From the NCBI GenBank assembly GCA_036253035.1, contig GCA_036253035.1_4123.1: 64,000 bases of DNA; one strand, written 5' to 3'. The position numbers and the translations under genes are program-made. The first letter of the stretch is position 1. Each line of letters starts with the position of its first letter. Shown here piece by piece: positions 7,214 through 57,496 of this stretch. This stretch comes from a phage. The notes under the pieces are model-generated. The model worked only from the letters and a program-made list of their open reading frames with translations. It had not been told where the DNA came from and did not search any database.

Positions 7214-8767
7214 TCATTTACCGTATTTGCTCATGATGTCCTTTTCCCAATGAGTTACGTTACCGTTATCGTAATCTTTAAAGGAATTATCAAGAGTAGT
7301 TAATGCATATTCGTATGCTTCAGGTGATTCAATGTCAACATCATCAGCACCATTTACTAAATCAGTCCATGCTTTTTGTAGTTTACGAGCATTTTTACCA
7401 ACATTACTTTTAATCCAACTAATGTTTTTGTTGATACTCTTATTATCAGCACCAGCTTTTTTACCAATATCGGATATCCACATCATTAGCTTTTGGAGTT
7501 CATGAATGGAGTTGTCGTTCATTTCACGATCTTTAGCCAATTCTGCTTCCATGCCATCAGTATCAGTACCATCTTTAGAACCTACATCAATTCCATGTTT
7601 AGCTAATAGTTTACCAAGTTCAAAGAATGCTGCCTCAGCAGGGAAGTCATAACCTTTGTCTTTGTAGTTGTTCCATGCACTATCAAACTCATCTACAAAT
7701 CGGTTGGCATAATCTGGATTGTCCACGAGAGCTTTGTACACTGCCATTGCATGTTCAAATCCTTCTTTGTCAGAACCAAACTCTCCCATTTCTGGACGAT
7801 GAATGTAACCATCCATATCAACAGTATCAGGTAAATCATCATGAGATGTTTCAGCATCTTTCTGGTCAACTGCACCTTCTTCATCATCACGCATCAGATA
7901 ACCATCTCGTGTAACCTTCTCACCGTGATCAGCTTCATACTTTTTCATAGTATTGAATGCAGCATCCATTGCAGTTACAAAACGACTCTTTTCACCTTGT
8001 ACATAAGATTTAAGTGCATCGTTAACTGCATCAGATACTAATTTAATCTTATCGTCTTTACCTTCCAGACGGTTTTCTAACTTAGCTAGTACATTCTTAA
8101 CTTGTTGAGCATTAGCACGGTCTTCTTTACCAATACTATCAAATGTTTTAAGTACGCTTTCAAGACTTACTTCCTCTTGTGCAGGCACATCACCTTGTTG
8201 CGTACCTTCAAGTGCACGCATTATAGTACTGAATACTTCAGTTGGTTCAGTACTGGTATTTCCACTCATTGCATCAAGTACAGCTTGTGCTTTGACTTTT
8301 AATTCTTCTTTAGGTACAGATTGCAATTCTTTCACAATACCTTGGATAAGTTGTGGTTTATTAGCAAAAATCTTACCTAACTTATCAGACAATTCTTTGA
8401 CAGGGTTAACCGCCTTTGGTGCTTCTTGTTTTGGTTCTTCTTTCGCAGGAGAAGACTTTTCTTTTTCTTCACGTTCCATATCAGCTAGGCGTTGTTTTTG
8501 TGTAGCATTAAGAAGTCCCAATGAATTAACATAACGTAGCTTTTCTAGCTCAGTCATGTTCTCAGTACTCTTAACTTCACCTGCTTCTGCGTTTGCTTTA
8601 CCAGCTAGACCAGTTCCTTGGTTACGTGATCCACGTGAACCTTGACCTGCTTGATAACTATTTGGTCGGCGGTTGCGTTCACTCCATTTATCCGAGTGAC
8701 CAGCCATGTTACCACCATTTTTATCAGTAAAATTACTTGGCATTTGATTTCTCTCCATAGATTTCAT
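7214..8767 (-). CDS. large hydrophilic protein, unknown function
   Basis: 517 aa, acidic/coiled; shares KYLxSLGLL motif with 9014..9397; TATAAATA-like motif about 25 nt upstream. Confidence 0.7.
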   Translation of the reverse strand: MKSMERNQMPSNFTDKNGGNMAGHSDKWSERNRRPNSYQAGQGSRGSRNQGTGLAGKANAEAGEVKSTENMTELEKLRYVNSLGLLNATQKQRLADMEREEKEKSSPAKEEPKQEAPKAVNPVKELSDKLGKIFANKPQLIQGIVKELQSVPKEELKVKAQAVLDAMSGNTSTEPTEVFSTIMRALEGTQQGDVPAQEEVSLESVLKTFDSIGKEDRANAQQVKNVLAKLENRLEGKDDKIKLVSDAVNDALKSYVQGEKSRFVTAMDAAFNTMKKYEADHGEKVTRDGYLMRDDEEGAVDQKDAETSHDDLPDTVDMDGYIHRPEMGEFGSDKEGFEHAMAVYKALVDNPDYANRFVDEFDSAWNNYKDKGYDFPAEAAFFELGKLLAKHGIDVGSKDGTDTDGMEAELAKDREMNDNSIHELQKLMMWISDIGKKAGADNKSINKNISWIKSNVGKNARKLQKAWTDLVNGADDVDIESPEAYEYALTTLDNSFKDYDNGNVTHWEKDIMSKYGK

Positions 8768-44572: not shown

Positions 44573-45103
44573 TTATTCAAGTATAGTAATTTCAATTAAA
44601 CGAATTTCGATAAACTCGTTTTCAGTTTCCCATGACGTGCCAAATTTCTTTTCAAGTTCAGATTTCACATCACTTTTAAATTTTCCCATAGTATTAGGAA
44701 TAATTTGTTTGGTTAATTTGTCGTAACCACAATAAAACATAGGTTTCTCCCTTCGAGATATTAGCTGAACAAAATCTTTTGGATATGCAGGTATGTTATG
44801 CATCACTTCATGAATACACTCAGTACTTGAATCTTGTACTTTGTACATTACATTAAGTTTACCTCTGAAATTTGCGGTCATATCAACAATAGTTCCTTTA
44901 CCCGATTTAAGTAAAGTTCCATTCTTTGAATGAGAGCAATAAAATACCTCATCACCAATATTAGGATAATACAAATTAAATTCTAATTCAGATTTTACAG
45001 CCAGCCGTTTGAAACTTTCTGTACGTTTTATATAAGTTTGGTATTTGTTTATGTTCAAAAGAATATCTCTCTTAGTAAATGTGATATAACTGGCATAGTC
45101 CAT
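44573..45103 (-). CDS. hypothetical protein
   Basis: minus ORF 176 aa; 5' end overlaps methyltransferase gene. Confidence 0.5.
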   Translation of the reverse strand: MDYASYITFTKRDILLNINKYQTYIKRTESFKRLAVKSELEFNLYYPNIGDEVFYCSHSKNGTLLKSGKGTIVDMTANFRGKLNVMYKVQDSSTECIHEVMHNIPAYPKDFVQLISRREKPMFYCGYDKLTKQIIPNTMGKFKSDVKSELEKKFGTSWETENEFIEIRLIEITILE

Positions 45104-45915
45104 CCATTCCCAAGCATTTTGTATGCTTGTGTCTTACTAGACACTTTAAAGAAATCTTCAGGAACACCCTGTAATTTACAACATTCTACTACACTTAAGT
45201 GTCTATAGTCAATATTTCTTTTGCCATTCTCTAATAGATATTGACGACTGATCACTGGGTCACGAAACACCAATTGTCGTCTGGATTTATTAAAGTACTG
45301 GTTACAATCACCACCTTTAAAATAGTTAGCATCTATACAGTACGAAGCGGTTCTGTCAGTGTACCAACCATCTTCAATAATATCTTGAAGTTTAGGTGCA
45401 TTGGATAATGCAGGTGGTATAAAAAGCTTATCAGTACTGTACCAGTAATATCTCTGCCTGAAGTGAGGCGTATAATGCTGGGAGTTTATCAGTACTGGCG
45501 TGATTCCTAAAATACTATTAATGTATTCTTTGAAATCTTCCTTCATTTTAACATTTTCAAACAGAAATTTCAAGTTAGGATTGAGACTTTTGATATGATC
45601 AAAAATTTCAACCATTACTAAAAATAACTGCCCACGTATATCATTTAAACCACCCTGTTTACCTGCAACTGACCAGGCTTGGCATGGGAAACCACCCATT
45701 AATAAATCTATTTTGTCCCACTCAATATCCCATTCTCTCCACTTAGTTACATCACCCAATTGGATAATATCAGGAAAGTTAGATTGAGATTCAGCTATTG
45801 CGTACTTATCAATTTCGGATGAATAATATTTTTCAACTGGGATACCCGCATCTTGCAATGCCATATATCCCACACTCATTCCATTAAAAAGAGAAAGTAC
45901 TCGGATAGGTTTCAT
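45055..45915 (-). CDS. DNA (cytosine-5)-methyltransferase
   Basis: 286 aa; motif IV GGFPCQAWS, ENV, C-terminal QAYKMLGNGWTMPV. Confidence 0.75.
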   Translation of the reverse strand: MKPIRVLSLFNGMSVGYMALQDAGIPVEKYYSSEIDKYAIAESQSNFPDIIQLGDVTKWREWDIEWDKIDLLMGGFPCQAWSVAGKQGGLNDIRGQLFLVMVEIFDHIKSLNPNLKFLFENVKMKEDFKEYINSILGITPVLINSQHYTPHFRQRYYWYSTDKLFIPPALSNAPKLQDIIEDGWYTDRTASYCIDANYFKGGDCNQYFNKSRRQLVFRDPVISRQYLLENGKRNIDYRHLSVVECCKLQGVPEDFFKVSSKTQAYKMLGNGWTMPVISHLLREIFF

Positions 45916-50302: not shown

Positions 50303-50497
50303 TTATTCCTTATTTAGATTGCTAAAAATACGAAGATTGCGGTTTGCTTTAAACTGTTTCAAATCACCAAATCTATCATCAACGATGAAAGTTGCTGATT
50401 TCTTTGACTGACATATTGTACAAATCAACATACCTTGTATTGTATACTCAGTTGAGCAATTTGTACAGTACTTTTTTTCATAAAGTTCAGTACTCAT
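50303..50497 (-). CDS. small zinc-ribbon protein
   Basis: 64 aa; CTNC..(14)..CTIC. Confidence 0.5.
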   Translation of the reverse strand: MSTELYEKKYCTNCSTEYTIQGMLICTICQSKKSATFIVDDRFGDLKQFKANRNLRIFSNLNKE

Positions 50498-50829
50498 AAA
50501 ACCTTCACATCAGTACGTTTTTCTCTTTGTTCTTTTTTAACCTCATCAGTTCTAGTATCTTCTAATTGTAACACAACTTCTTTTAGAATGTCAACATCAA
50601 TTGTTGCTTCTACATATTGATAGTCGTTTACACCAAAAACATACTTTACTGCAACCCATACACGGTTATACCATTTTAAAAAAGGATTTAAACGCATACT
50701 TATCAGACATTGACCAAGTTTATCATCTCCATATTCCTCTGTCAAGTCAAATTGTGCAATGTGAACGCAATGCTCCATTTTATCGCCACAAGAACAACGT
50801 AAAATATACTCTTTACTATCTTCACTCAT
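50494..50829 (-). CDS. hypothetical protein
   Basis: minus ORF 111 aa. Confidence 0.55.
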   Translation of the reverse strand: MSEDSKEYILRCSCGDKMEHCVHIAQFDLTEEYGDDKLGQCLISMRLNPFLKWYNRVWVAVKYVFGVNDYQYVEATIDVDILKEVVLQLEDTRTDEVKKEQREKRTDVKVL

Positions 50830-51248
50830 ACTGGATAAGCCTTTAAAAATTGTTTAAGAACTCCAAACTTAGATGAATCGTAATCGTATTGATAGTTAAG
50901 CTCTCGCTTATCATTCATACGATACACCATATGAAAATTTGGATAACCAATTCTAACAGGTTTTTTAGGATTAGCAAGTAAAATTGCCCATTCTTTTACA
51001 GGAAATACGTTTTCAGACAGCATTTTGATATTTGTTTCAAAATACTTCATGGCTTGCTTTCCGTGCTTGTAATCTTCTTCACTAATCTCTTGACAATCAA
51101 TTCTATGTGTTTCGGTATCTAACACCCATTGTTGATCTTCGGTATATAAATCAATTACATCATCAATAGTATAACTATCAGGTAAATCATAAAATACCCA
51201 ATGAGATAAACCAGAACTTACACCAATTCGAATTTTAAAGAACTTCAT
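50826..51248 (-). CDS. hypothetical protein
   Basis: minus ORF 140 aa. Confidence 0.55.
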   Translation of the reverse strand: MKFFKIRIGVSSGLSHWVFYDLPDSYTIDDVIDLYTEDQQWVLDTETHRIDCQEISEEDYKHGKQAMKYFETNIKMLSENVFPVKEWAILLANPKKPVRIGYPNFHMVYRMNDKRELNYQYDYDSSKFGVLKQFLKAYPV

Positions 51249-51406
51249 TCTTTATCACCTTTTACATAATTATAACACACGACACAGTGAATTACAAGAA
51301 GAATTATTTCCACAATATTAAGAGACAATACATGACTCTGCGGTGTGAAAAGTGCCAATAACAACATTATAGCAGGTATTGTGAATATTTTCCAAGTTTT
51401 TTTCAT
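51245..51406 (-). CDS. small membrane protein
   Basis: track ORF 51245..51550; ATG 51406 gives MKKTWKIFTIPAIMLLLALF.. Confidence 0.4.
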   Translation of the reverse strand: MKKTWKIFTIPAIMLLLALFTPQSHVLSLNIVEIILLVIHCVVCYNYVKGDKE

Positions 51407-51407
51407 T

Positions 51408-51638
51408 TTATTCCTTTGTATATGCATATGGTAAAAATAAAACCTCTGCATTAGGAATGCATTGTGCCAATCCTTCAACAATAGATTTGTTTTTATTACA
51501 TTGCCAAACTTTAGTAATTTTATGTCTAAATACTTTTTTATCAACGACAATCCAGTACATGTCCATTTTAACAGTACTGTTATCAGATGGTGTTAGTAAA
51601 GTATCGATGTCATATGTATCAAAGATTTTGTCGTTCAT
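51408..51638 (-). CDS. hypothetical protein
   Basis: minus ORF 76 aa. Confidence 0.5.
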   Translation of the reverse strand: MNDKIFDTYDIDTLLTPSDNSTVKMDMYWIVVDKKVFRHKITKVWQCNKNKSIVEGLAQCIPNAEVLFLPYAYTKE

Positions 51639-51900
51639 ATAATCTCCTAATAAAATATTCTCGATTCTCTCTTATATACCCAGATACACAGTTAGTTGTG
51701 GCTTGGTTAGTGAATGAAATCTCACTATTGGACACGCCATTTGCATCACACAAAGGACATATTCCCATGTACTTGGGGGTCGGGTAGGTGTCCAATTTGT
51801 ATTTTCCATTACATACCATGTACTGCTGTGGCAATACATCTAATATTATTTCATATTCTTCATCAAACACCTTGAAGCATACCCAACATTTACCCATCAT
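51619..51900 (-). CDS. Cys-rich putative zinc-binding protein
   Basis: 93 aa; CWVC..CPLC. Confidence 0.5.
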   Translation of the reverse strand: MMGKCWVCFKVFDEEYEIILDVLPQQYMVCNGKYKLDTYPTPKYMGICPLCDANGVSNSEISFTNQATTNCVSGYIRENREYFIRRLYERQNL

Positions 51901-52381
51901 AGTTTTCCTTTAACACAGTTCTTATATATTCGAATGTTTTAACAAACCAATCATGTTCGTCGGATACATCTACAACTTTACCACCATATACATAGTAATG
52001 GTAAAAAGGCAACTTGCTTTTTCTTAATCTTTCGGCTAACTCTGGATTTTGAATTATTTTAGCACAAATAGCATCTTGAATAATAGAAATACAATCATCC
52101 GTCATTTCAATTCGATCATGCATATATTTGTTAGCGGCTGCTTTTGCTGCTGCACCAGATACTTTTCTAAGGTCATCATGTTTTTGCCCAGTTAAAAACC
52201 AAAAGTAAAATGTTTCAACTGAAGGGAACCAACCATATGGTTCAAGTGTGAAGCTATGCGAAGAAAAGTTAGATAGATCTCTACCTAACTTCGTTCTGGC
52301 TTTACTATAAATGTTAATATGTCGGTATCCATCATCAGTAGGGTCAATGAAGTTAAATGACTCTTCTGGGAATTCAAACAT
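51890..52381 (-). CDS. NADAR/YbiA-like (DUF1768-like) protein
   Basis: 163 aa; LSNFSSHSF, IIQDAICAKIIQNPELAERLRKS resemble YbiA-family motifs as I recall them. Confidence 0.45.
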   Translation of the reverse strand: MFEFPEESFNFIDPTDDGYRHINIYSKARTKLGRDLSNFSSHSFTLEPYGWFPSVETFYFWFLTGQKHDDLRKVSGAAAKAAANKYMHDRIEMTDDCISIIQDAICAKIIQNPELAERLRKSKLPFYHYYVYGGKVVDVSDEHDWFVKTFEYIRTVLKENYDG

Positions 52382-52383
52382 AA

Positions 52384-52737
52384 TTATTCTTCTTCTCCTG
52401 AAGGTGTTCCACGTAGTTTATCAAAATCAACCCAAATACCATGCTGGTTTTTAAATCGACATTTCTCATAGTACCAACTATAGTCTGTTTCAACACCTTG
52501 TGAAATAGAACGCACACTACAATCATACATATTATATAAATGTTCCCTGACAATATATGTATTAATCAGTACAACGAATAATACAATAATACCACAGATT
52601 TTAGGATGGTCCATAATCAAGTCAAGTACTGAACTAGTTTCAGAACTATCAATCTTACTTCTACAAATAGCAACAATTTTAAGAACAGCGAATGATACCA
52701 GTAATGAAATTACAATAACACTTAAATAAATTAGCAT
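52384..52737 (-). CDS. membrane protein
   Basis: 117 aa, N-terminal TM helices. Confidence 0.55.
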   Translation of the reverse strand: MLIYLSVIVISLLVSFAVLKIVAICRSKIDSSETSSVLDLIMDHPKICGIIVLFVVLINTYIVREHLYNMYDCSVRSISQGVETDYSWYYEKCRFKNQHGIWVDFDKLRGTPSGEEE

Positions 52738-52740
52738 AAA

Positions 52741-53322
52741 TTACACTCCTACACCAAAACGTAAAATAATATTATTAACAAACACTAAATCAAAAGGTGA
52801 CTTTGGTTCAGATACTGAGTACTGAAATGATTCTGCTGCGAAATTTTCTCTATTATACCATGTTTCAGAATTTATTAGCATTTTTTTATCACCAATCGTC
52901 ACTGAATGTAATGGAACATTTGAAGAAGAATTTATTGAATATGCATTAAGATTACCGTTTTCATCTAATGTGATACTAAGATAATATTTTTTCTCAATAT
53001 CAGGAATAAGTTCTTTTGTATACGAATAGATTGAATCAACCCATTCATCATGTACATTTTCTGCACCAATCAGGTGTCCGAATGATAAATTACGTTTAAC
53101 TGGCTTTGATCCTGGTCGAGTTAGAATGAATTGTTTTGTTAAGTAAAAATTATTATGTTTTACTTCAATATTAACATTTTTAAAATTCACCACTTTATCA
53201 TATACATTTCGAAAAACTGTTATATCCCAAGTACTAATTTCATCCATAATACTTATCACCAGTTCTTCTAGTTCTTGTATAAATGGCAAATCATCTTGAT
53301 GAAATCTAGTCATGGTTTTCAT
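52741..53322 (-). CDS. hypothetical protein
   Basis: minus ORF 193 aa. Confidence 0.6.
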   Translation of the reverse strand: MKTMTRFHQDDLPFIQELEELVISIMDEISTWDITVFRNVYDKVVNFKNVNIEVKHNNFYLTKQFILTRPGSKPVKRNLSFGHLIGAENVHDEWVDSIYSYTKELIPDIEKKYYLSITLDENGNLNAYSINSSSNVPLHSVTIGDKKMLINSETWYNRENFAAESFQYSVSEPKSPFDLVFVNNIILRFGVGV

Positions 53323-53923
53323 ATACCTTTTTCAAATTCATAATTTCAAGAATGCTGTATTCTTTATCACCAATCAAATCTTCAGTGAATGCAGTGGGGT
53401 CAGCATCGCTATACAACTTACCATTGATGATAACACAACCATTACTAAGATACAATGCACTCATGATCTGTTGTCCTTCTTTCACATTTTGTGCTAGACC
53501 TGTATTTGTTACTACAAATCCATTTGTTGCTAATGATGATGTTAGTTCTGACCATTCAACTGATATTAAGTCGCGATAGTCCTTAGATACTTTTATATTC
53601 ACAATACAAGCAACTCGTTTAATAGGTGGAGTGCTAATCGTGTACATTTGTGGTTGTTGGTAATTAGAGTTGTATGTTTGTGGTGTTTTAACAGCAGTTC
53701 CTGAATTTTGAGTTGATTTGGTAATTACTGGTTCTACACTGGGGACTGTTGTTCTTAGTGATATAATACGTCCAGTTTCATCCAATTTAAGGACTAAACG
53801 ATGAGTTTCATCCTCAGAGTAATAGGGAAACAAGCCACCGGAATTCATATTTTGAAGCATTTTAATTAATTCATAAGTATTTTTTAAAAACATAGTACAC
53901 CCCATAGAAAAGGGGGAGTACAA
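53306..53923 (-). CDS. hypothetical protein
   Basis: minus ORF 205 aa. Confidence 0.6.
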   Translation of the reverse strand: MYSPFSMGCTMFLKNTYELIKMLQNMNSGGLFPYYSEDETHRLVLKLDETGRIISLRTTVPSVEPVITKSTQNSGTAVKTPQTYNSNYQQPQMYTISTPPIKRVACIVNIKVSKDYRDLISVEWSELTSSLATNGFVVTNTGLAQNVKEGQQIMSALYLSNGCVIINGKLYSDADPTAFTEDLIGDKEYSILEIMNLKKVYENHD

Positions 53924-53941: not shown

Positions 53942-54496
53942 TTATAGTTTAATTGATTCTTGAATACCAGTATCCATTGCTTTCTTGGTACGTGTATCAG
54001 ATACTACTGTACAAAGGTGTTCAATATTTTCACTTGGAAACGTATTCGAATCAAGAATTTTGGAATTCCAGAAGCCTTTGCGGAACTTAGCATAATCAGT
54101 ACACTGGTCAATTTTCATTTTCTGAAGATTGTTGAACTTTGTACGTCCTGTTTCAATTGTCACCATCAATTCCTGATAAATTTTAGGATCAAGATTTGGA
54201 ACCTGTTGTTGAATCTGTGACATTACAAACTTCTGGTCAACACCTTCACGCCCTTTAAAGTATGATTCAATCGTTTCTTTCAACGCATCTTTATACTTAT
54301 CGGCTACTTGAACCTTATCTTGAATAGTAAGAGTATAATTGCTAAGTTGACTTTCTGATGCATCATAATACTTTTTAATGTTTCCTTCAAACTCAACTGC
54401 ACGATCATGTGCACCAACATACATACTAATAGAACCAAACACCATTAGTACGATAACTACCAAAATACCAATTAACGCAAGGAGTTTACCATTCAT
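53942..54496 (-). CDS. LemA-like membrane-anchored protein (tentative)
   Basis: 184 aa; single N-terminal TM then helical domain; size and layout match LemA family; ATGA overlap with upstream gene. Confidence 0.45.
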   Translation of the reverse strand: MNGKLLALIGILVVIVLMVFGSISMYVGAHDRAVEFEGNIKKYYDASESQLSNYTLTIQDKVQVADKYKDALKETIESYFKGREGVDQKFVMSQIQQQVPNLDPKIYQELMVTIETGRTKFNNLQKMKIDQCTDYAKFRKGFWNSKILDSNTFPSENIEHLCTVVSDTRTKKAMDTGIQESIKL

Positions 54497-55590: not shown

Positions 55591-56280
55591 TTAATCCATT
55601 TTAAGCTTGTTTAGACAGAATGAAATCTGGATTGCTTCACGTGCTGCATCAAACAGTGGGTGATGTAACTCCAACCCATTAATCCCACACGTATTTGCAT
55701 ATGTGATAAATTTATCCAACTGTACCGAAACGATTTCATCCATTTCAATACGAGCTTCTTCATTCAATAAACGTTTCAATGTGCGTGCATTTTCAGGTGC
55801 ATCATACTTCCACAACTCACCAGCGTTCATTAGTTTTAAATGGTTTGCTTGTAAAATACTACAATCGAAGTTACATCCGTTGCCCCAGACTGAATGAGGA
55901 ACTTCTTCACCATAATCATTGTAACGTAATTCTTTCCAGAAATCAACAATACTACTGTATGCAAAAAATCGTCGTGATTGACCATTCGGTCCATACAGTT
56001 CAGGTGCTTTGAGTTTCATAGTACTGGCAACTTCAGAATATGCATTAGAGTATTCTTTCTGACATGTATTCATCCAAAAATCCATTGCACCTGCGTCTGA
56101 TTTTAAACCAGCAGCAACTTGATCCTGGTATGGTAATTTAATATATAAGAACTGACGAATGTCATTTTCAGGTTTACTTGGAACTACTACTGCTGCGTAA
56201 TTTGGGATAATAATATCATAACCGGAAAGTTCAGGTGTTCCAAGAGCTTCAATATCAACACTAATATGACGACGTTTCAT
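55591..56280 (-). CDS. DEDD-family 3'-5' exonuclease (DexA-like)
   Basis: 229 aa; N-terminal ISVDIEALG exo I motif, C-terminal HHPLFDA. Confidence 0.6.
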   Translation of the reverse strand: MKRRHISVDIEALGTPELSGYDIIIPNYAAVVVPSKPENDIRQFLYIKLPYQDQVAAGLKSDAGAMDFWMNTCQKEYSNAYSEVASTMKLKAPELYGPNGQSRRFFAYSSIVDFWKELRYNDYGEEVPHSVWGNGCNFDCSILQANHLKLMNAGELWKYDAPENARTLKRLLNEEARIEMDEIVSVQLDKFITYANTCGINGLELHHPLFDAAREAIQISFCLNKLKMD

Positions 56281-56359: not shown

Positions 56360-57496
56360 TTACTTGTTAGCTTTTTCGGCAATTTCACGAAGAGTGTCTT
56401 CCAGTTCATAGGAAAGTTGTGCAATTTCCTGTTTAGCACGTTCACGTTCCAATTTGCCTTTTTTCTCTTCTTCAATAACTGCTTCAATACTGTCAATCAT
56501 CGTTTTATGTACATTACGCAAGGTTTTAATATCCACAATACCACGGTTGTTTGCCTTTGCTGCGTCCAACATATTTGCTGCAACCATTTTAGAGTTAGTT
56601 TCCAAAAGACGGTTTGTCTCATTATCAATTAGATTGCCTAGTTCATTATCCTTACGTTGACGCTCGGAAATTAACTGTTCAGCCAATTGAGACTTCCATG
56701 CTGGAATAACAACAGATTTTAAATCTTCAAACTTAGAAACAGTGTTCAAGTTTACTTTTTTCATACTCATCAAACGTGGACCACTTAGCTCGCACATCAT
56801 GATAAGACGACGAATCTTATCTTCTTGTTTAGAAAGTGCTTCACAAATCATCTTTTGCTCTTGAATAGCAAAAGAGTCTACATTTTTGTCTGCTTGCATT
56901 TCTAATAATAATGCATCTTGTGTTTTAGTTACTTCTTCTAAACCAACTAATGTATCACGTAATTCAAACAAATATTCTTTGTTTTCATTATATGCTTTAT
57001 CAAGCCATTCACATTCTCCGTGCTGGCGATTAATACCAGTTTGAAGAGTTTTCATAATTTCGTCAATTTGCTCTTTACTGTTTTTGTACTGATCACCTAC
57101 TTTCTGTTGAGCATTAACAAAGAATTTCTTAATACGACCAACAATTGATTTATCTTCTTGAAGACTGTCAATATCAACTGCACGAGTCAACGTAAGAATT
57201 GTGGTGATTGATTTACCAAACTCGGTATTGTCATCCGTTACATTAACTTTAGACATAATTTCATCAGCCAAACGCCCAACAGCAGCACCAGCAGTTGTAC
57301 CAACAGTATTGATGTTTTGAACTGTTAGAGACATAGTATTTCCCTTAACATCTTTCAGTACTGGTAGTGATTTTGTAGTTTGGTTAAAAATATCACTTGC
57401 ATCAATTGTATGACCTTTAGACGCAGTTTTAGTAGTGCGTTTTGCTGATTTAGCTGCGGTGGATGCTTTTTTAGGATTGATTTCTTTCTCGGACAT
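56360..57496 (-). CDS. TelA/KlaA-like (toxic-anion-resistance family) protein, tentative
   Basis: 378 aa, long helical acidic protein; family call from size and composition only. Confidence 0.4.
   Translation of the reverse strand: MSEKEINPKKASTAAKSAKRTTKTASKGHTIDASDIFNQTTKSLPVLKDVKGNTMSLTVQNINTVGTTAGAAVGRLADEIMSKVNVTDDNTEFGKSITTILTLTRAVDIDSLQEDKSIVGRIKKFFVNAQQKVGDQYKNSKEQIDEIMKTLQTGINRQHGECEWLDKAYNENKEYLFELRDTLVGLEEVTKTQDALLLEMQADKNVDSFAIQEQKMICEALSKQEDKIRRLIMMCELSGPRLMSMKKVNLNTVSKFEDLKSVVIPAWKSQLAEQLISERQRKDNELGNLIDNETNRLLETNSKMVAANMLDAAKANNRGIVDIKTLRNVHKTMIDSIEAVIEEEKKGKLERERAKQEIAQLSYELEDTLREIAEKANK

What the first reader, a model, noticed from the sequence alone, without database searches (positions are those of the whole stretch)
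51890..52381. NADAR/YbiA-like protein as an anti-defence candidate
Motifs resembling the YbiA/NADAR family (LSNFSSHSF; NPELAERL). NADAR-type enzymes have been reported to reverse ADP-ribosylation of guanine in DNA, so a phage copy could counter DarT-like toxins. Both the family call and the function are unverified.
Basis: inference. Interest (0 to 1): 0.5.

Follow-up and report, generated by a model that had tools for sequence, protein, structure and literature searches.

The report
Divergent phage NADAR ADP-ribose hydrolase gene
This small jumbo-phage gene, labelled "hypothetical" in every database record seen, encodes a very divergent member of the NADAR family of enzymes that cut ADP-ribose off DNA bases. 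It is related to the T4 protein already shown to defeat the bacterial DarTG1 defence, so it is a credible but untested anti-defence gene of a known kind.

Summary
The ORF is real: window 51890-52381, minus strand, 163 aa, with both quoted motifs. It is gp139c of Asteriusvirus jumbo coliphages (phAPEC6, SP27, 121Q).

Pfam NADAR, Pfam Phage_30_3 and NCBIfam give no hit even at E<=10.

Deeper tests place it firmly in the NADAR superfamily:
- A 27-sequence family profile hits only two PDB sequences, both NADARs (8BAU E 1e-4, YbiA 5e-4).
- It falls in the same PHROG (652) as T4 gp30.3 (AdfN). Profile-profile comparison with the gp30.3 family gives 97% probability.

It keeps the ribose-binding Glu (E56) and the His (H128) typical of phage NADARs. 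The whole clade (about 2,000 clusters at 50% identity) lacks the conserved phosphate-binding Lys. Relatives are fused to DUF4326, SLOG, Macro, DUF488 and canonical NADAR domains.

Best reading: an ADP-ribosyl N-glycohydrolase used against host NAD+-dependent immunity, most plausibly DarT1-type guanine ADP-ribosylation. The substrate is unproven. It is a new member of a known kind, of moderate interest.

The parts
51890..52381 (-). Gene for a 163-aa NADAR-fold protein (phAPEC6 gp139c, QDF13768.1, annotated 'hypothetical protein')
52265..52276 (-). L36-S37-N38-F39, the LSNF signature shared with YbiA, PnNADAR and T4 gp30.3
   Evidence: Invariant in A1. Aligned to (F/L)SNF of 8bau and 2b3w and of the gp30.3 family. 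L 168, S 158, N 172 and F 166 of 175 representatives.
52214..52216 (-). E56, equivalent of the distal-ribose-binding Glu (E43 PnNADAR, E88 E. coli C7 NADAR, E36 AdfN-T4)
   Evidence: 175/175 conserved. Aligned to the SxE Glu of 8bau and 2b3w and to E36 of T4 gp30.3. Residue roles from PMC11543638 and PMC11825919.
52193..52195 (-). L63, the position where NADARs carry the conserved phosphate-binding Lys (K50 Pn, K95 C7, K43 T4); no Lys here
   Evidence: hhalign register E56<->E36 puts L63 opposite K43. Commonest residues at this column are S 43, L 40 and G 40 of 175, so no conserved Lys. No conserved basic residue among the commonest residues at positions 57-66.
52142..52144 (-). K80 of the 'AK..G(R/K)' helix, aligned with K75 of PnNADAR (K115 of C7 NADAR); the query clade has A83/N84 where the family has G and R/K
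   Evidence: K80 in 173/175. Position 83 is G in 163/175 and A in 10. Position 84 is R 84, K 43. Alignment to AKKLGR of 8bau.
51998..52000 (-). H128 at the start of the last beta-hairpin, the His that replaces the YbiA Glu / DarG1 Asp in phage NADARs
   Evidence: 173/175 conserved. Aligned to invariant H123 of the gp30.3 family. Strand 129-132 in the model. His as the phage-NADAR hallmark: PMC11543638, PMC11125620.
52025..52048 (-). NPELAERL (residues 112-119), helix 113-121; the '(Q)N..l...L' helix common to NADARs
   Evidence: Aligned to 'qnkelaell' / EQHAELRALL of YbiA and to QN..FR.AL of gp30.3. Helix in the model.

Best explanation
The gene encodes a stand-alone NADAR-fold enzyme of the phage (gp30.3/AdfN-like, His-type) branch. 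It is made inside the infected cell rather than carried in the virion. Like other NADARs, it most likely binds the ADP-ribose moiety with E56 and H128 flanking the distal ribose, and hydrolyses the N-glycosidic bond between ADP-ribose and a nucleobase. The most likely target is guanine-N2-ADP-ribose put on phage DNA by DarT1-type host toxins. Removing it would restore replication and so act as a counter-defence. Shown here: the ORF, its conservation, NADAR fold and homology, kinship with T4 gp30.3, retention of Glu and His, loss of the Lys, and its NAD/ADPr-type fusion partners. Inferred: that it is catalytically active, what its substrate is, and that it serves as anti-defence.
For: Fold and homology:
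- The A1 profile hits only 8bau (E 1.1e-4) and 2b3w (E 4.8e-4) in the PDB.
- AF2 model has pLDDT 90.8 and pTM 0.84.
- In BFVD, the top hits are unnamed or uncharacterised phage proteins at 25-90% identity, followed by many viral proteins named NADAR.

Kinship with AdfN-T4:
- The ORF hits phrog_652 at E 5.4e-45, and T4 gp30.3 hits the same PHROG at E 9.2e-51.
- hhalign of the family against the gp30.3 family gives 97% probability, E 8.7e-11, over 139 columns.

Active-site residues: E56 is in 175/175 representatives, H128 in 173/175, W145 in 172/175, K80 in 173/175.

Domain context: among 84 long relatives, 25 are fused to DUF4326, 18 to YAcAr-SLOG, 10 to DprA-type SLOG, 6 to Macro, 6 to DUF488-N3a and 1 to a canonical NADAR. 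Neighbours in bacterial or MAG contigs include Macro, DUF488-N3a, canonical NADAR and AAA_28.

Precedent:
- T4 gp30.3 removes G-ADPr in vitro and counters DarTG1, and Bas32 and Bas60 NADARs do too (PMC11825919).

Expression: gp139c is absent from the phAPEC6 virion mass-spectrometry list. It sits in a tight minus-strand array of small genes.
Against: - No activity data exist for any member of this clade.
- The Lys seven residues after the Glu is absent across the clade. That Lys is essential in E. coli C7 NADAR, and mutating it in AdfN-T4 left only partial rescue.
- The query's own sub-clade has also lost the G and R/K of the 'AK..GR' pyrophosphate loop.
- P0097 carries a canonical NADAR and this domain in one polypeptide, which argues for non-redundant specificities.
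- No DarT or ART gene was found in the window. No DarT family appears among the 25 families displayed (of 59 matched) next to the 11 bacterial homologues.
- AdfN-T4 itself fails to neutralise DarT1 outside T-even infection (PMC11125620, PMC11825919), so activity does not guarantee protection.
- Iyer et al. (PMC9503650) argue that phage NADARs mainly target soluble ADPr derivatives.
Confidence: 0.5

Rival explanations
1. It is an active NADAR-fold hydrolase, but its physiological substrate is not DarT1-modified guanine. It would instead process a different ADP-ribose conjugate: a soluble NAD+-derived immune signal or toxin (cADPR-type Thoeris/TIR signals, ADPr-1''-phosphate and similar), or another base adduct such as cytosine- or adenine-ADPr on DNA or RNA. 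It would work alongside Macro, SLOG, DUF4326 and DUF488 enzymes.
For: Fusions to DUF4326, SLOG, Macro, DUF488-N3a and a canonical NADAR. Neighbourhoods with Macro, DUF488-N3a, NADAR and AAA_28, and with 2H phosphoesterase, Metallophos and PRTase. Clade-wide replacement of the phosphate-binding Lys, and a clade-specific aromatic E-G-Y-W-Y-W motif, indicate a remodelled ligand pocket. This division of labour among viral ADPr-processing domains is proposed in PMC9503650 and PMC7824862. Some NADARs also remove cytidine-ADPr (PMC12945103).
Against: No NADAR has yet been shown to act on soluble immune signals. Every NADAR tested so far, including the closest characterised relative T4 gp30.3, hydrolyses guanine-ADPr. 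The stand-alone protein in this window has none of the partner domains nearby.
Confidence: 0.28
2. It regulates or reverses ADP-ribosylation carried out by the phage's own ADP-ribosyltransferases (an Alt/Mod-like writer-eraser pair), rather than countering a host defence.
For: One homologue (P0023, L004) lies next to a 392-aa ADPrib_exo_Tox/ART protein. In T4, gene 30.3 lies about 3 kb from alt. PMC9503650 notes co-expression of NADARs with ARTs in T4-like phages.
Against: No ART domain was detected among 114 ORFs of this window. The ART adjacency was seen in only one of the six homologues whose contigs were examined. T4 gp30.3 has a demonstrated anti-DarTG1 role.
Confidence: 0.08
3. It is a catalytically dead NADAR-fold protein that only binds ADP-ribose or nucleic acid (a sponge or reader), or has an unrelated role.
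For: Loss of the conserved Lys, and in this sub-clade of the G-R loop residues. No Pfam match.
Against: E56, H128, W145, K80, N23, G33 and G76 are near-invariant across 175 diverged representatives. That pattern is typical of a maintained active site. The fusions are to enzymes of ADPr metabolism.
Confidence: 0.1

Closest known systems
T4 gp30.3 = AdfN-T4 (Pfam PF08010 Phage_30_3; 'phage NADAR')
   Same: Same PHROG 652. hhalign 97% over 139 columns. Shares LSNF, the catalytic-site Glu, the 'AK..G' helix, the His in the last strand and the C-terminal-helix Arg. Both are stand-alone proteins of about 150-160 aa in large myoviruses of E. coli.
   Different: No pairwise BLASTP alignment at all and no PF08010 hit. 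K43 of T4 is absent here, where the residue is L63. This clade has an N-terminal 'DG.HINIYSK' element and an aromatic EGYWYW helix instead of EGFLQ.LK. Activity is demonstrated for T4 but untested here.
E. coli YbiA (PDB 2B3W) and Phytophthora NADAR (PDB 8BAU), canonical NADAR PF08719
   Different: 17% identity. His replaces Glu in the last strand. The Lys at Glu+7 is missing. The C-terminal 'D.YWG.G..G.G.N.LG' segment (recalled from the YbiA sequence, not tested here) is replaced by a beta-hairpin 'HYYVYGGKVV' followed by W145. Below Pfam detection.
DarG1 (DarT1-associated NADAR antitoxin, BC4488 family; PDB 8BAT)
   Different: Not next to a DarT toxin. Has His rather than Asp at the catalytic last-strand position. 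Lacks K95.
AdfN-Bas32 and AdfN-Bas60 (non-T4 phage NADARs that neutralise DarT1)
   Same: Orphan NADARs in lytic coliphages, proposed or shown to be counter-defence factors (PMC11825919).
   Different: The paper places them with archaeal or bacterial canonical NADARs rather than the gp30.3 branch. They were not compared with this protein here because their sequences were not retrieved.

Membership tests
NADAR superfamily (YbiA fold) | [quoted passage not shown] | tested here: met
NADAR superfamily (YbiA fold) | Match to Pfam NADAR (PF08719) at or above the gathering score | tested here: not met
   No Pfam hit at E<=10. The best among four relatives tested is E 0.16, 12.7 bits against a 35.1 cut-off.
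NADAR superfamily (YbiA fold) | Sequence-profile homology to experimentally solved NADARs | tested here: met
   The A1 profile hits only 8bau (E 1.1e-4) and 2b3w (E 4.8e-4) among 177,635 PDB sequences.
NADAR superfamily (YbiA fold) | Conserved Glu contacting the distal ribose (E43 Pn, E88 C7) | tested here: met
   E56 in 175/175 representatives, aligned to that Glu.
NADAR superfamily (YbiA fold) | Conserved phosphate-binding Lys seven residues after the Glu (K50 Pn, K95 C7, K43 T4) | tested here: not met
   The query has L63. The commonest residues at this column are S 43, L 40 and G 40 of 175.
NADAR superfamily (YbiA fold) | Catalytic polar residue in the last strand (Glu in YbiA, Asp in BC4488, His in phage NADARs) | tested here: met
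   H128 in 173/175, aligned to H123 of gp30.3.
NADAR superfamily (YbiA fold) | ADP-ribosyl N-glycohydrolase activity | not testable with these tools
   Needs an enzyme assay.
Phage NADAR / gp30.3 / AdfN (PF08010) | Match to Pfam Phage_30_3 at the gathering score | tested here: not met
   No hit for the query. Relatives score E 0.082 (P0013) and E 4.4e-6, 27 bits against a cut-off of 36 (P0097).
Phage NADAR / gp30.3 / AdfN (PF08010) | Remote-homology clustering with T4 gp30.3 | tested here: met
   Both fall in phrog_652 (E 5.4e-45 and 9.2e-51). hhalign gives 97%, E 8.7e-11.
Phage NADAR / gp30.3 / AdfN (PF08010) | Counter-defence against DarTG1 during infection | not testable with these tools
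   Needs phage genetics and plaque assays.
DarG1 (DarT1-NADAR toxin-antitoxin) | Encoded next to a DarT1 ADP-ribosyltransferase | tested here: not met
   No ART or DarT domain among 114 window ORFs. None among the 25 families displayed, of 59 matched, around the 11 bacterial or MAG homologues.
DarG1 (DarT1-NADAR toxin-antitoxin) | Asp at the last-strand catalytic position | tested here: not met
   His (H128) instead.

The most novel reading that the evidence does not exclude
The Lys-less, His-type 'EGYWYW' clade is a functionally distinct NADAR branch. It has about 2,000 clusters at 50% identity, is found in 506 phage records and is rare in bacterial genomes. Its remodelled pocket would recognise an ADP-ribose derivative other than guanine-ADPr, for example a soluble TIR/Thoeris-type signal or a still-undescribed nucleic-acid adduct. 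That would make it a new class of phage anti-defence enzyme, working alongside Macro, SLOG, DUF4326 and DUF488 domains.
Probability: 0.25. Interest if true: 0.7.

Novelty: new member of a known kind. Interest (0 to 1): 0.35.

Why it matters
- **Annotation.** It gives a function-level label to a gene called 'hypothetical' (one record says 'virion structural protein') in the phage records listed. Current Pfam, NCBIfam and PADLOC models miss it, so phage NADARs are probably under-counted by standard pipelines.
- **Host range.** If the protein removes DarT1-type DNA ADP-ribosylation, it would help explain how Asteriusvirus, Kuttervirus-like and other large phages plate on DarTG1-carrying Enterobacteria. 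That is relevant to choosing therapeutic phages.
- **Mechanism.** The missing Lys offers a natural experiment on what the NADAR active site really needs, and may point to a new substrate.

Tried and rejected
- **PADLOC:** no hit for the ORF, and none for T4 gp30.3 either.
- **phmmer of the single sequence against the PDB:** nothing. Only the family profile worked.
- **BLASTP of the ORF against T4 gp30.3:** no alignment.
- **Supplementary tables of PMC9503650 and PMC11825919:** wanted to see whether this exact protein was already listed as a NADAR, but they are not held.
- **Gene neighbourhood of six homologues:** mostly arrays of unknown small phage genes with no conserved partner. Single cases showed an adjacent ART (L004) and a 2H/Metallophos/PRTase cluster (L008).
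- **Genome scan:** only 11 bacterial or MAG loci, phage-like in content, with no DarT pairing seen.
- **Promoter scan:** the number of sigma-70-like sites does not exceed shuffles (45 against 39.9 +/- 6.6), so no transcription-unit claim is made beyond one perfect consensus site.
- **Riboflavin-intermediate N-glycosidase role (known for some YbiA proteins):** considered and set aside. There is no riboflavin context, and the protein is on the phage-type His branch.
- **3D check of which basic residue might replace the missing Lys:** not possible, because model coordinates are not exposed.

Full report
**1. The observation**

The window is part of an Asteriusvirus-type jumbo coliphage. Window 51000-53500 is 100% identical to phAPEC6 (MK817115, 72016-74516) and SP27, and 98% identical to 121Q.

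An ATG-initiated ORF of 163 aa lies exactly at 51890..52381 on the minus strand. It corresponds to phAPEC6 gp139c (QDF13768.1), annotated 'hypothetical protein'.

The gene sits in a long minus-strand array of small genes. Read directly from the sequence, its start overlaps the stop of an upstream reading frame by 8 nt (ATGTTTGA). Its stop overlaps the start of the downstream 93-aa CxxC protein by 8-11 nt.

The ORF is conserved:
- tblastn finds relatives in 506 phage records. These include jumbo phages of Escherichia, Klebsiella, Erwinia, Serratia and Xanthomonas, roughly 157-kb Salmonella, Klebsiella and Escherichia phages, and Vibrio phages.
- Among the rows listed, nearly all hits are annotated 'hypothetical protein'. 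One is called 'virion structural protein' and a few records carry no annotation.

**2. The proposed check fails, but deeper tests succeed**

Standard family libraries do not recognise the protein:
- Pfam-A gives no family at E<=10, so neither NADAR (PF08719) nor Phage_30_3 (PF08010).
- NCBIfam gives none and PADLOC none.
- phmmer of the single sequence against PDB sequences gives nothing.
- PHROGs gives phrog_652 (E 5.4e-45) and phrog_11222 (E 3e-31), both 'unknown function'.

I collected 28 homologues and aligned 26 of them with the query (A1). Used as a profile against 177,635 distinct PDB sequences, A1 gives exactly two hits at E<=10, and both are NADARs:
- 8BAU, the Phytophthora NADAR with ADP-ribose, at E 1.1e-4.
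- 2B3W, E. coli YbiA, at E 4.8e-4.

The aligned stretch covers INxYS, LSNF, SxE, the 'AK..GR' helix and the 'QN..L' helix.

Foldseek against viral models first finds unnamed or uncharacterised phage proteins at 25-90% identity. One of them is an Erwinia phage 'DprA-like' protein of 293 aa. After these come many proteins named NADAR from giant viruses and phages. Membership of the NADAR superfamily at fold and profile level is therefore well supported.

**3. Which NADAR**

The literature distinguishes NADAR branches by the residue in the last strand: Glu in YbiA, Asp in the DarT1-associated BC4488/DarG1 family, and His in 'phage NADARs', also called gp30.3 proteins (PMC11543638, PMC11125620).

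I fetched T4 gene 30.3 (translated). Three comparisons with the window protein gave:
- T4 gp30.3 falls into the same phrog_652 (E 9.2e-51).
- Pairwise BLASTP finds nothing.
- hhalign of A1 against a 43-sequence gp30.3-family alignment (A4) gives 97% probability, E 8.7e-11, over 139 columns.

That alignment gives the following residue equivalences (query <-> T4 gp30.3):

| Query residue | T4 gp30.3 residue |
|---|---|
| LSNF | LSNF |
| E56 | E36 |
| K80 | the Lys of 'AK..G' |
| H128 | H123 |
| R154 | R149 |

The protein is thus a distant sister of the T4 AdfN family and shares its diagnostic His.

**4. What is different**

NADARs carry a Lys seven residues after the Glu:
- K50 in PnNADAR binds the pyrophosphate and adenine.
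- K95 in E. coli C7 NADAR is essential for guanine-ADPr hydrolysis (PMC11543638).
- K43A in AdfN-T4 gives only partial rescue (PMC11825919).

In this protein that position is L63.

A library-wide profile search found 2,089 representatives of 50%-identity clusters at E<=1e-3 (646 at E<=1e-30). Across 175 domain representatives:
- The Lys column holds S 43, L 40 and G 40 as its commonest residues, so Lys is not conserved there.
- E56 is in 175/175, H128 in 173/175, K80 in 173/175, K108 in 169/175 and W145 in 172/175.
- N23, G33 and G76 are invariant.
- The helix after the Glu is an aromatic E-G-Y-W-Y-W-L motif specific to the clade.

The query's own sub-clade (Asteriusvirus and Rak2-like phages) also has A83/N84. 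The family has G there in 163/175, and R or K in 127/175. These positions align with G78/R79 of PnNADAR, whose Arg binds the pyrophosphate (PMC11543638). I could not determine which basic residue might compensate because model coordinates are not exposed.

**5. Context**

A Pfam scan of 114 window ORFs found no canonical NADAR, Macro or ART domain. The families it did find include a C5 DNA methylase, TelA, a DenV-like glycosylase, an Rv2179c-like exonuclease, NT5C, a sigma-factor-like protein, Cpn10, a clamp loader and a DnaE fragment.

Immediate neighbours fall in PHROGs of unknown function. gp139c is not among the virion-associated proteins in the part of the phAPEC6 mass-spectrometry table shown, which runs straight from gp078c to gp149c (PMC7247149). 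This suggests intracellular expression.

Domain fusions are informative. Of 84 relatives of 200 aa or more:
- 25 carry DUF4326;
- 18 carry a YAcAr SLOG domain;
- 10 carry a DprA-type SLOG domain;
- 6 carry a Macro domain;
- 6 carry DUF488-N3a;
- single examples carry Metallophos, an Rv2179c-like exonuclease, or a canonical PF08719 NADAR.

The last case is P0097, which has the canonical NADAR at residues 10-143, this domain at 548-698, and DUF4326 at 1185-1274.

Gene neighbourhoods of six homologues are mostly anonymous phage gene arrays. One homologue lies next to an ADPrib_exo_Tox/ART protein (L004). Another lies near a 2H phosphoesterase, a Metallophos protein and a phosphoribosyltransferase (L008).

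A scan of 185,579 species' genomes found only 11 loci. Their neighbours include Macro (2), DUF488-N3a (2), AAA_28 (2), a canonical NADAR and typical phage nucleotide-metabolism genes. No DarT family appears among the 25 families displayed, out of 59 matched.

This is the NAD+/ADP-ribose-processing network already described for large phages by Iyer et al. (PMC9503650, PMC7824862). [quoted passage not shown] Their sensitive profiles very probably already cover this clade, but I could not verify that because their tables are not held.

**6. Mechanism**

The best-supported reading is an ADP-ribosyl N-glycohydrolase. E56 and H128 would sit on either side of the distal ribose, as in PnNADAR with ADPr, and W145 and K80 would line the ADPr site.

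By analogy with its closest characterised relative, the likeliest physiological job is to strip guanine-N2-ADP-ribose left on phage DNA by DarT1-type toxins:
- AdfN-T4 removes G-ADPr in vitro and restores growth on DarTG1 hosts (PMC11825919).

This step is inference. The evidence against it:
- the missing Lys and the altered pyrophosphate loop;
- the co-occurrence with a canonical NADAR in one polypeptide;
- the absence of any DarT linkage.

All of these leave real room for a different ADPr substrate, such as soluble immune signals or toxins, or other base adducts. In vitro activity also need not translate into protection: T4 gp30.3 does not neutralise DarT1 outside T-even infection (PMC11125620, PMC11825919).

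My confidence by claim:

| Claim | Confidence |
|---|---|
| NADAR-superfamily assignment | >0.9 |
| 'Phage-type, AdfN-related' branch | about 0.85 |
| Active ADPr glycohydrolase used in counter-defence | about 0.7 |
| Specific anti-DarT1 role | about 0.4-0.5 |

**7. Novelty and verdict**

This is a new, unannotated and highly divergent member of a known kind: phage NADAR/AdfN-like ADP-ribosylglycohydrolases, whose anti-DarTG1 role was published in 2025. The only unusual feature is the clade-wide loss of the conserved Lys, which might signal a new substrate specificity. Interest is moderate (0.35). The value lies mainly in annotation and in a clear, cheap set of experiments.

Noticed in passing
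window 52384-52737 (-) versus 52374-52526 (-): The 117-aa ORF just upstream of the NADAR gene has a predicted membrane-like N-terminus and matches phrog_8041 over its full length (E 5e-46). The phAPEC6 record instead annotates a 51-aa ORF in another frame (gp140c) and leaves 52527-52737 unannotated. That is probably a mis-call in the deposited annotation.
   Followed up: partly
window 51619-51900 (-): The downstream neighbour is a 93-aa protein with two CxxC pairs (zinc-ribbon-like), in phrog_35738 of unknown function. Its start overlaps the stop of the NADAR gene, suggesting translational coupling. It has only weak PADLOC hits (Cas7_IIIf E 0.005, PtuB E 0.03), which are likely noise.
   Followed up: partly
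window 56356-56310 (-): A perfect sigma-70 consensus (TTGACA-17-TATAAT, 12/12) overlaps a 16-bp terminator-like hairpin, between the TelA-like gene and the gene at 55591-56280. It may be a host-RNAP early promoter and terminator junction for the downstream array that includes the NADAR gene.
   Followed up: no
window 45055-45915 (-): The window encodes a C-5 cytosine DNA methyltransferase (Pfam DNA_methylase E 7.5e-38). By size and the phAPEC6 annotation (gp123c, 'putative DNA-methyltransferase') it is this ORF. It may matter because DNA modification state influenced AdfN-T4 specificity in the literature.
   Followed up: no
window, ORFs not individually pinned (TelA = 56360-57496): The Pfam sweep of 114 ORFs also found TelA, a DenV-like pyrimidine-dimer glycosylase, an Rv2179c-like 3'-5' exonuclease, an NT5C nucleotidase, a sigma-70-like protein (regions 2-4), a Cpn10 co-chaperonin, a HAD hydrolase, a clamp loader and a DnaE fragment. 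The great majority of ORFs have no Pfam match.
   Followed up: no
L004 8500-9678 (-), next to homologue P0023 at 8001-8435: In a 117-kb metagenomic phage contig, the NADAR-like gene lies beside a 392-aa ADPrib_exo_Tox/ART-family ADP-ribosyltransferase on the opposite strand. This may be a phage writer-eraser pair, reminiscent of alt near gene 30.3 in T4.
   Followed up: partly
P0097 (1415 aa, metagenomic representative): A single polypeptide combines a canonical Pfam NADAR (residues 10-143), the Lys-less NADAR-like domain (548-698) and DUF4326 (1185-1274). This suggests the two NADAR types are not redundant.
   Followed up: partly
window 53942-54496 (-) and 50494-50829 (-): Two nearby ORFs match PHROGs labelled 'virion structural protein' (phrog_1383, phrog_12660). 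Neither the corresponding phAPEC6 products nor any others between gp078c and gp149c appear in the portion of the virion mass-spectrometry table shown. The PHROG labels may be unreliable here.
   Followed up: no
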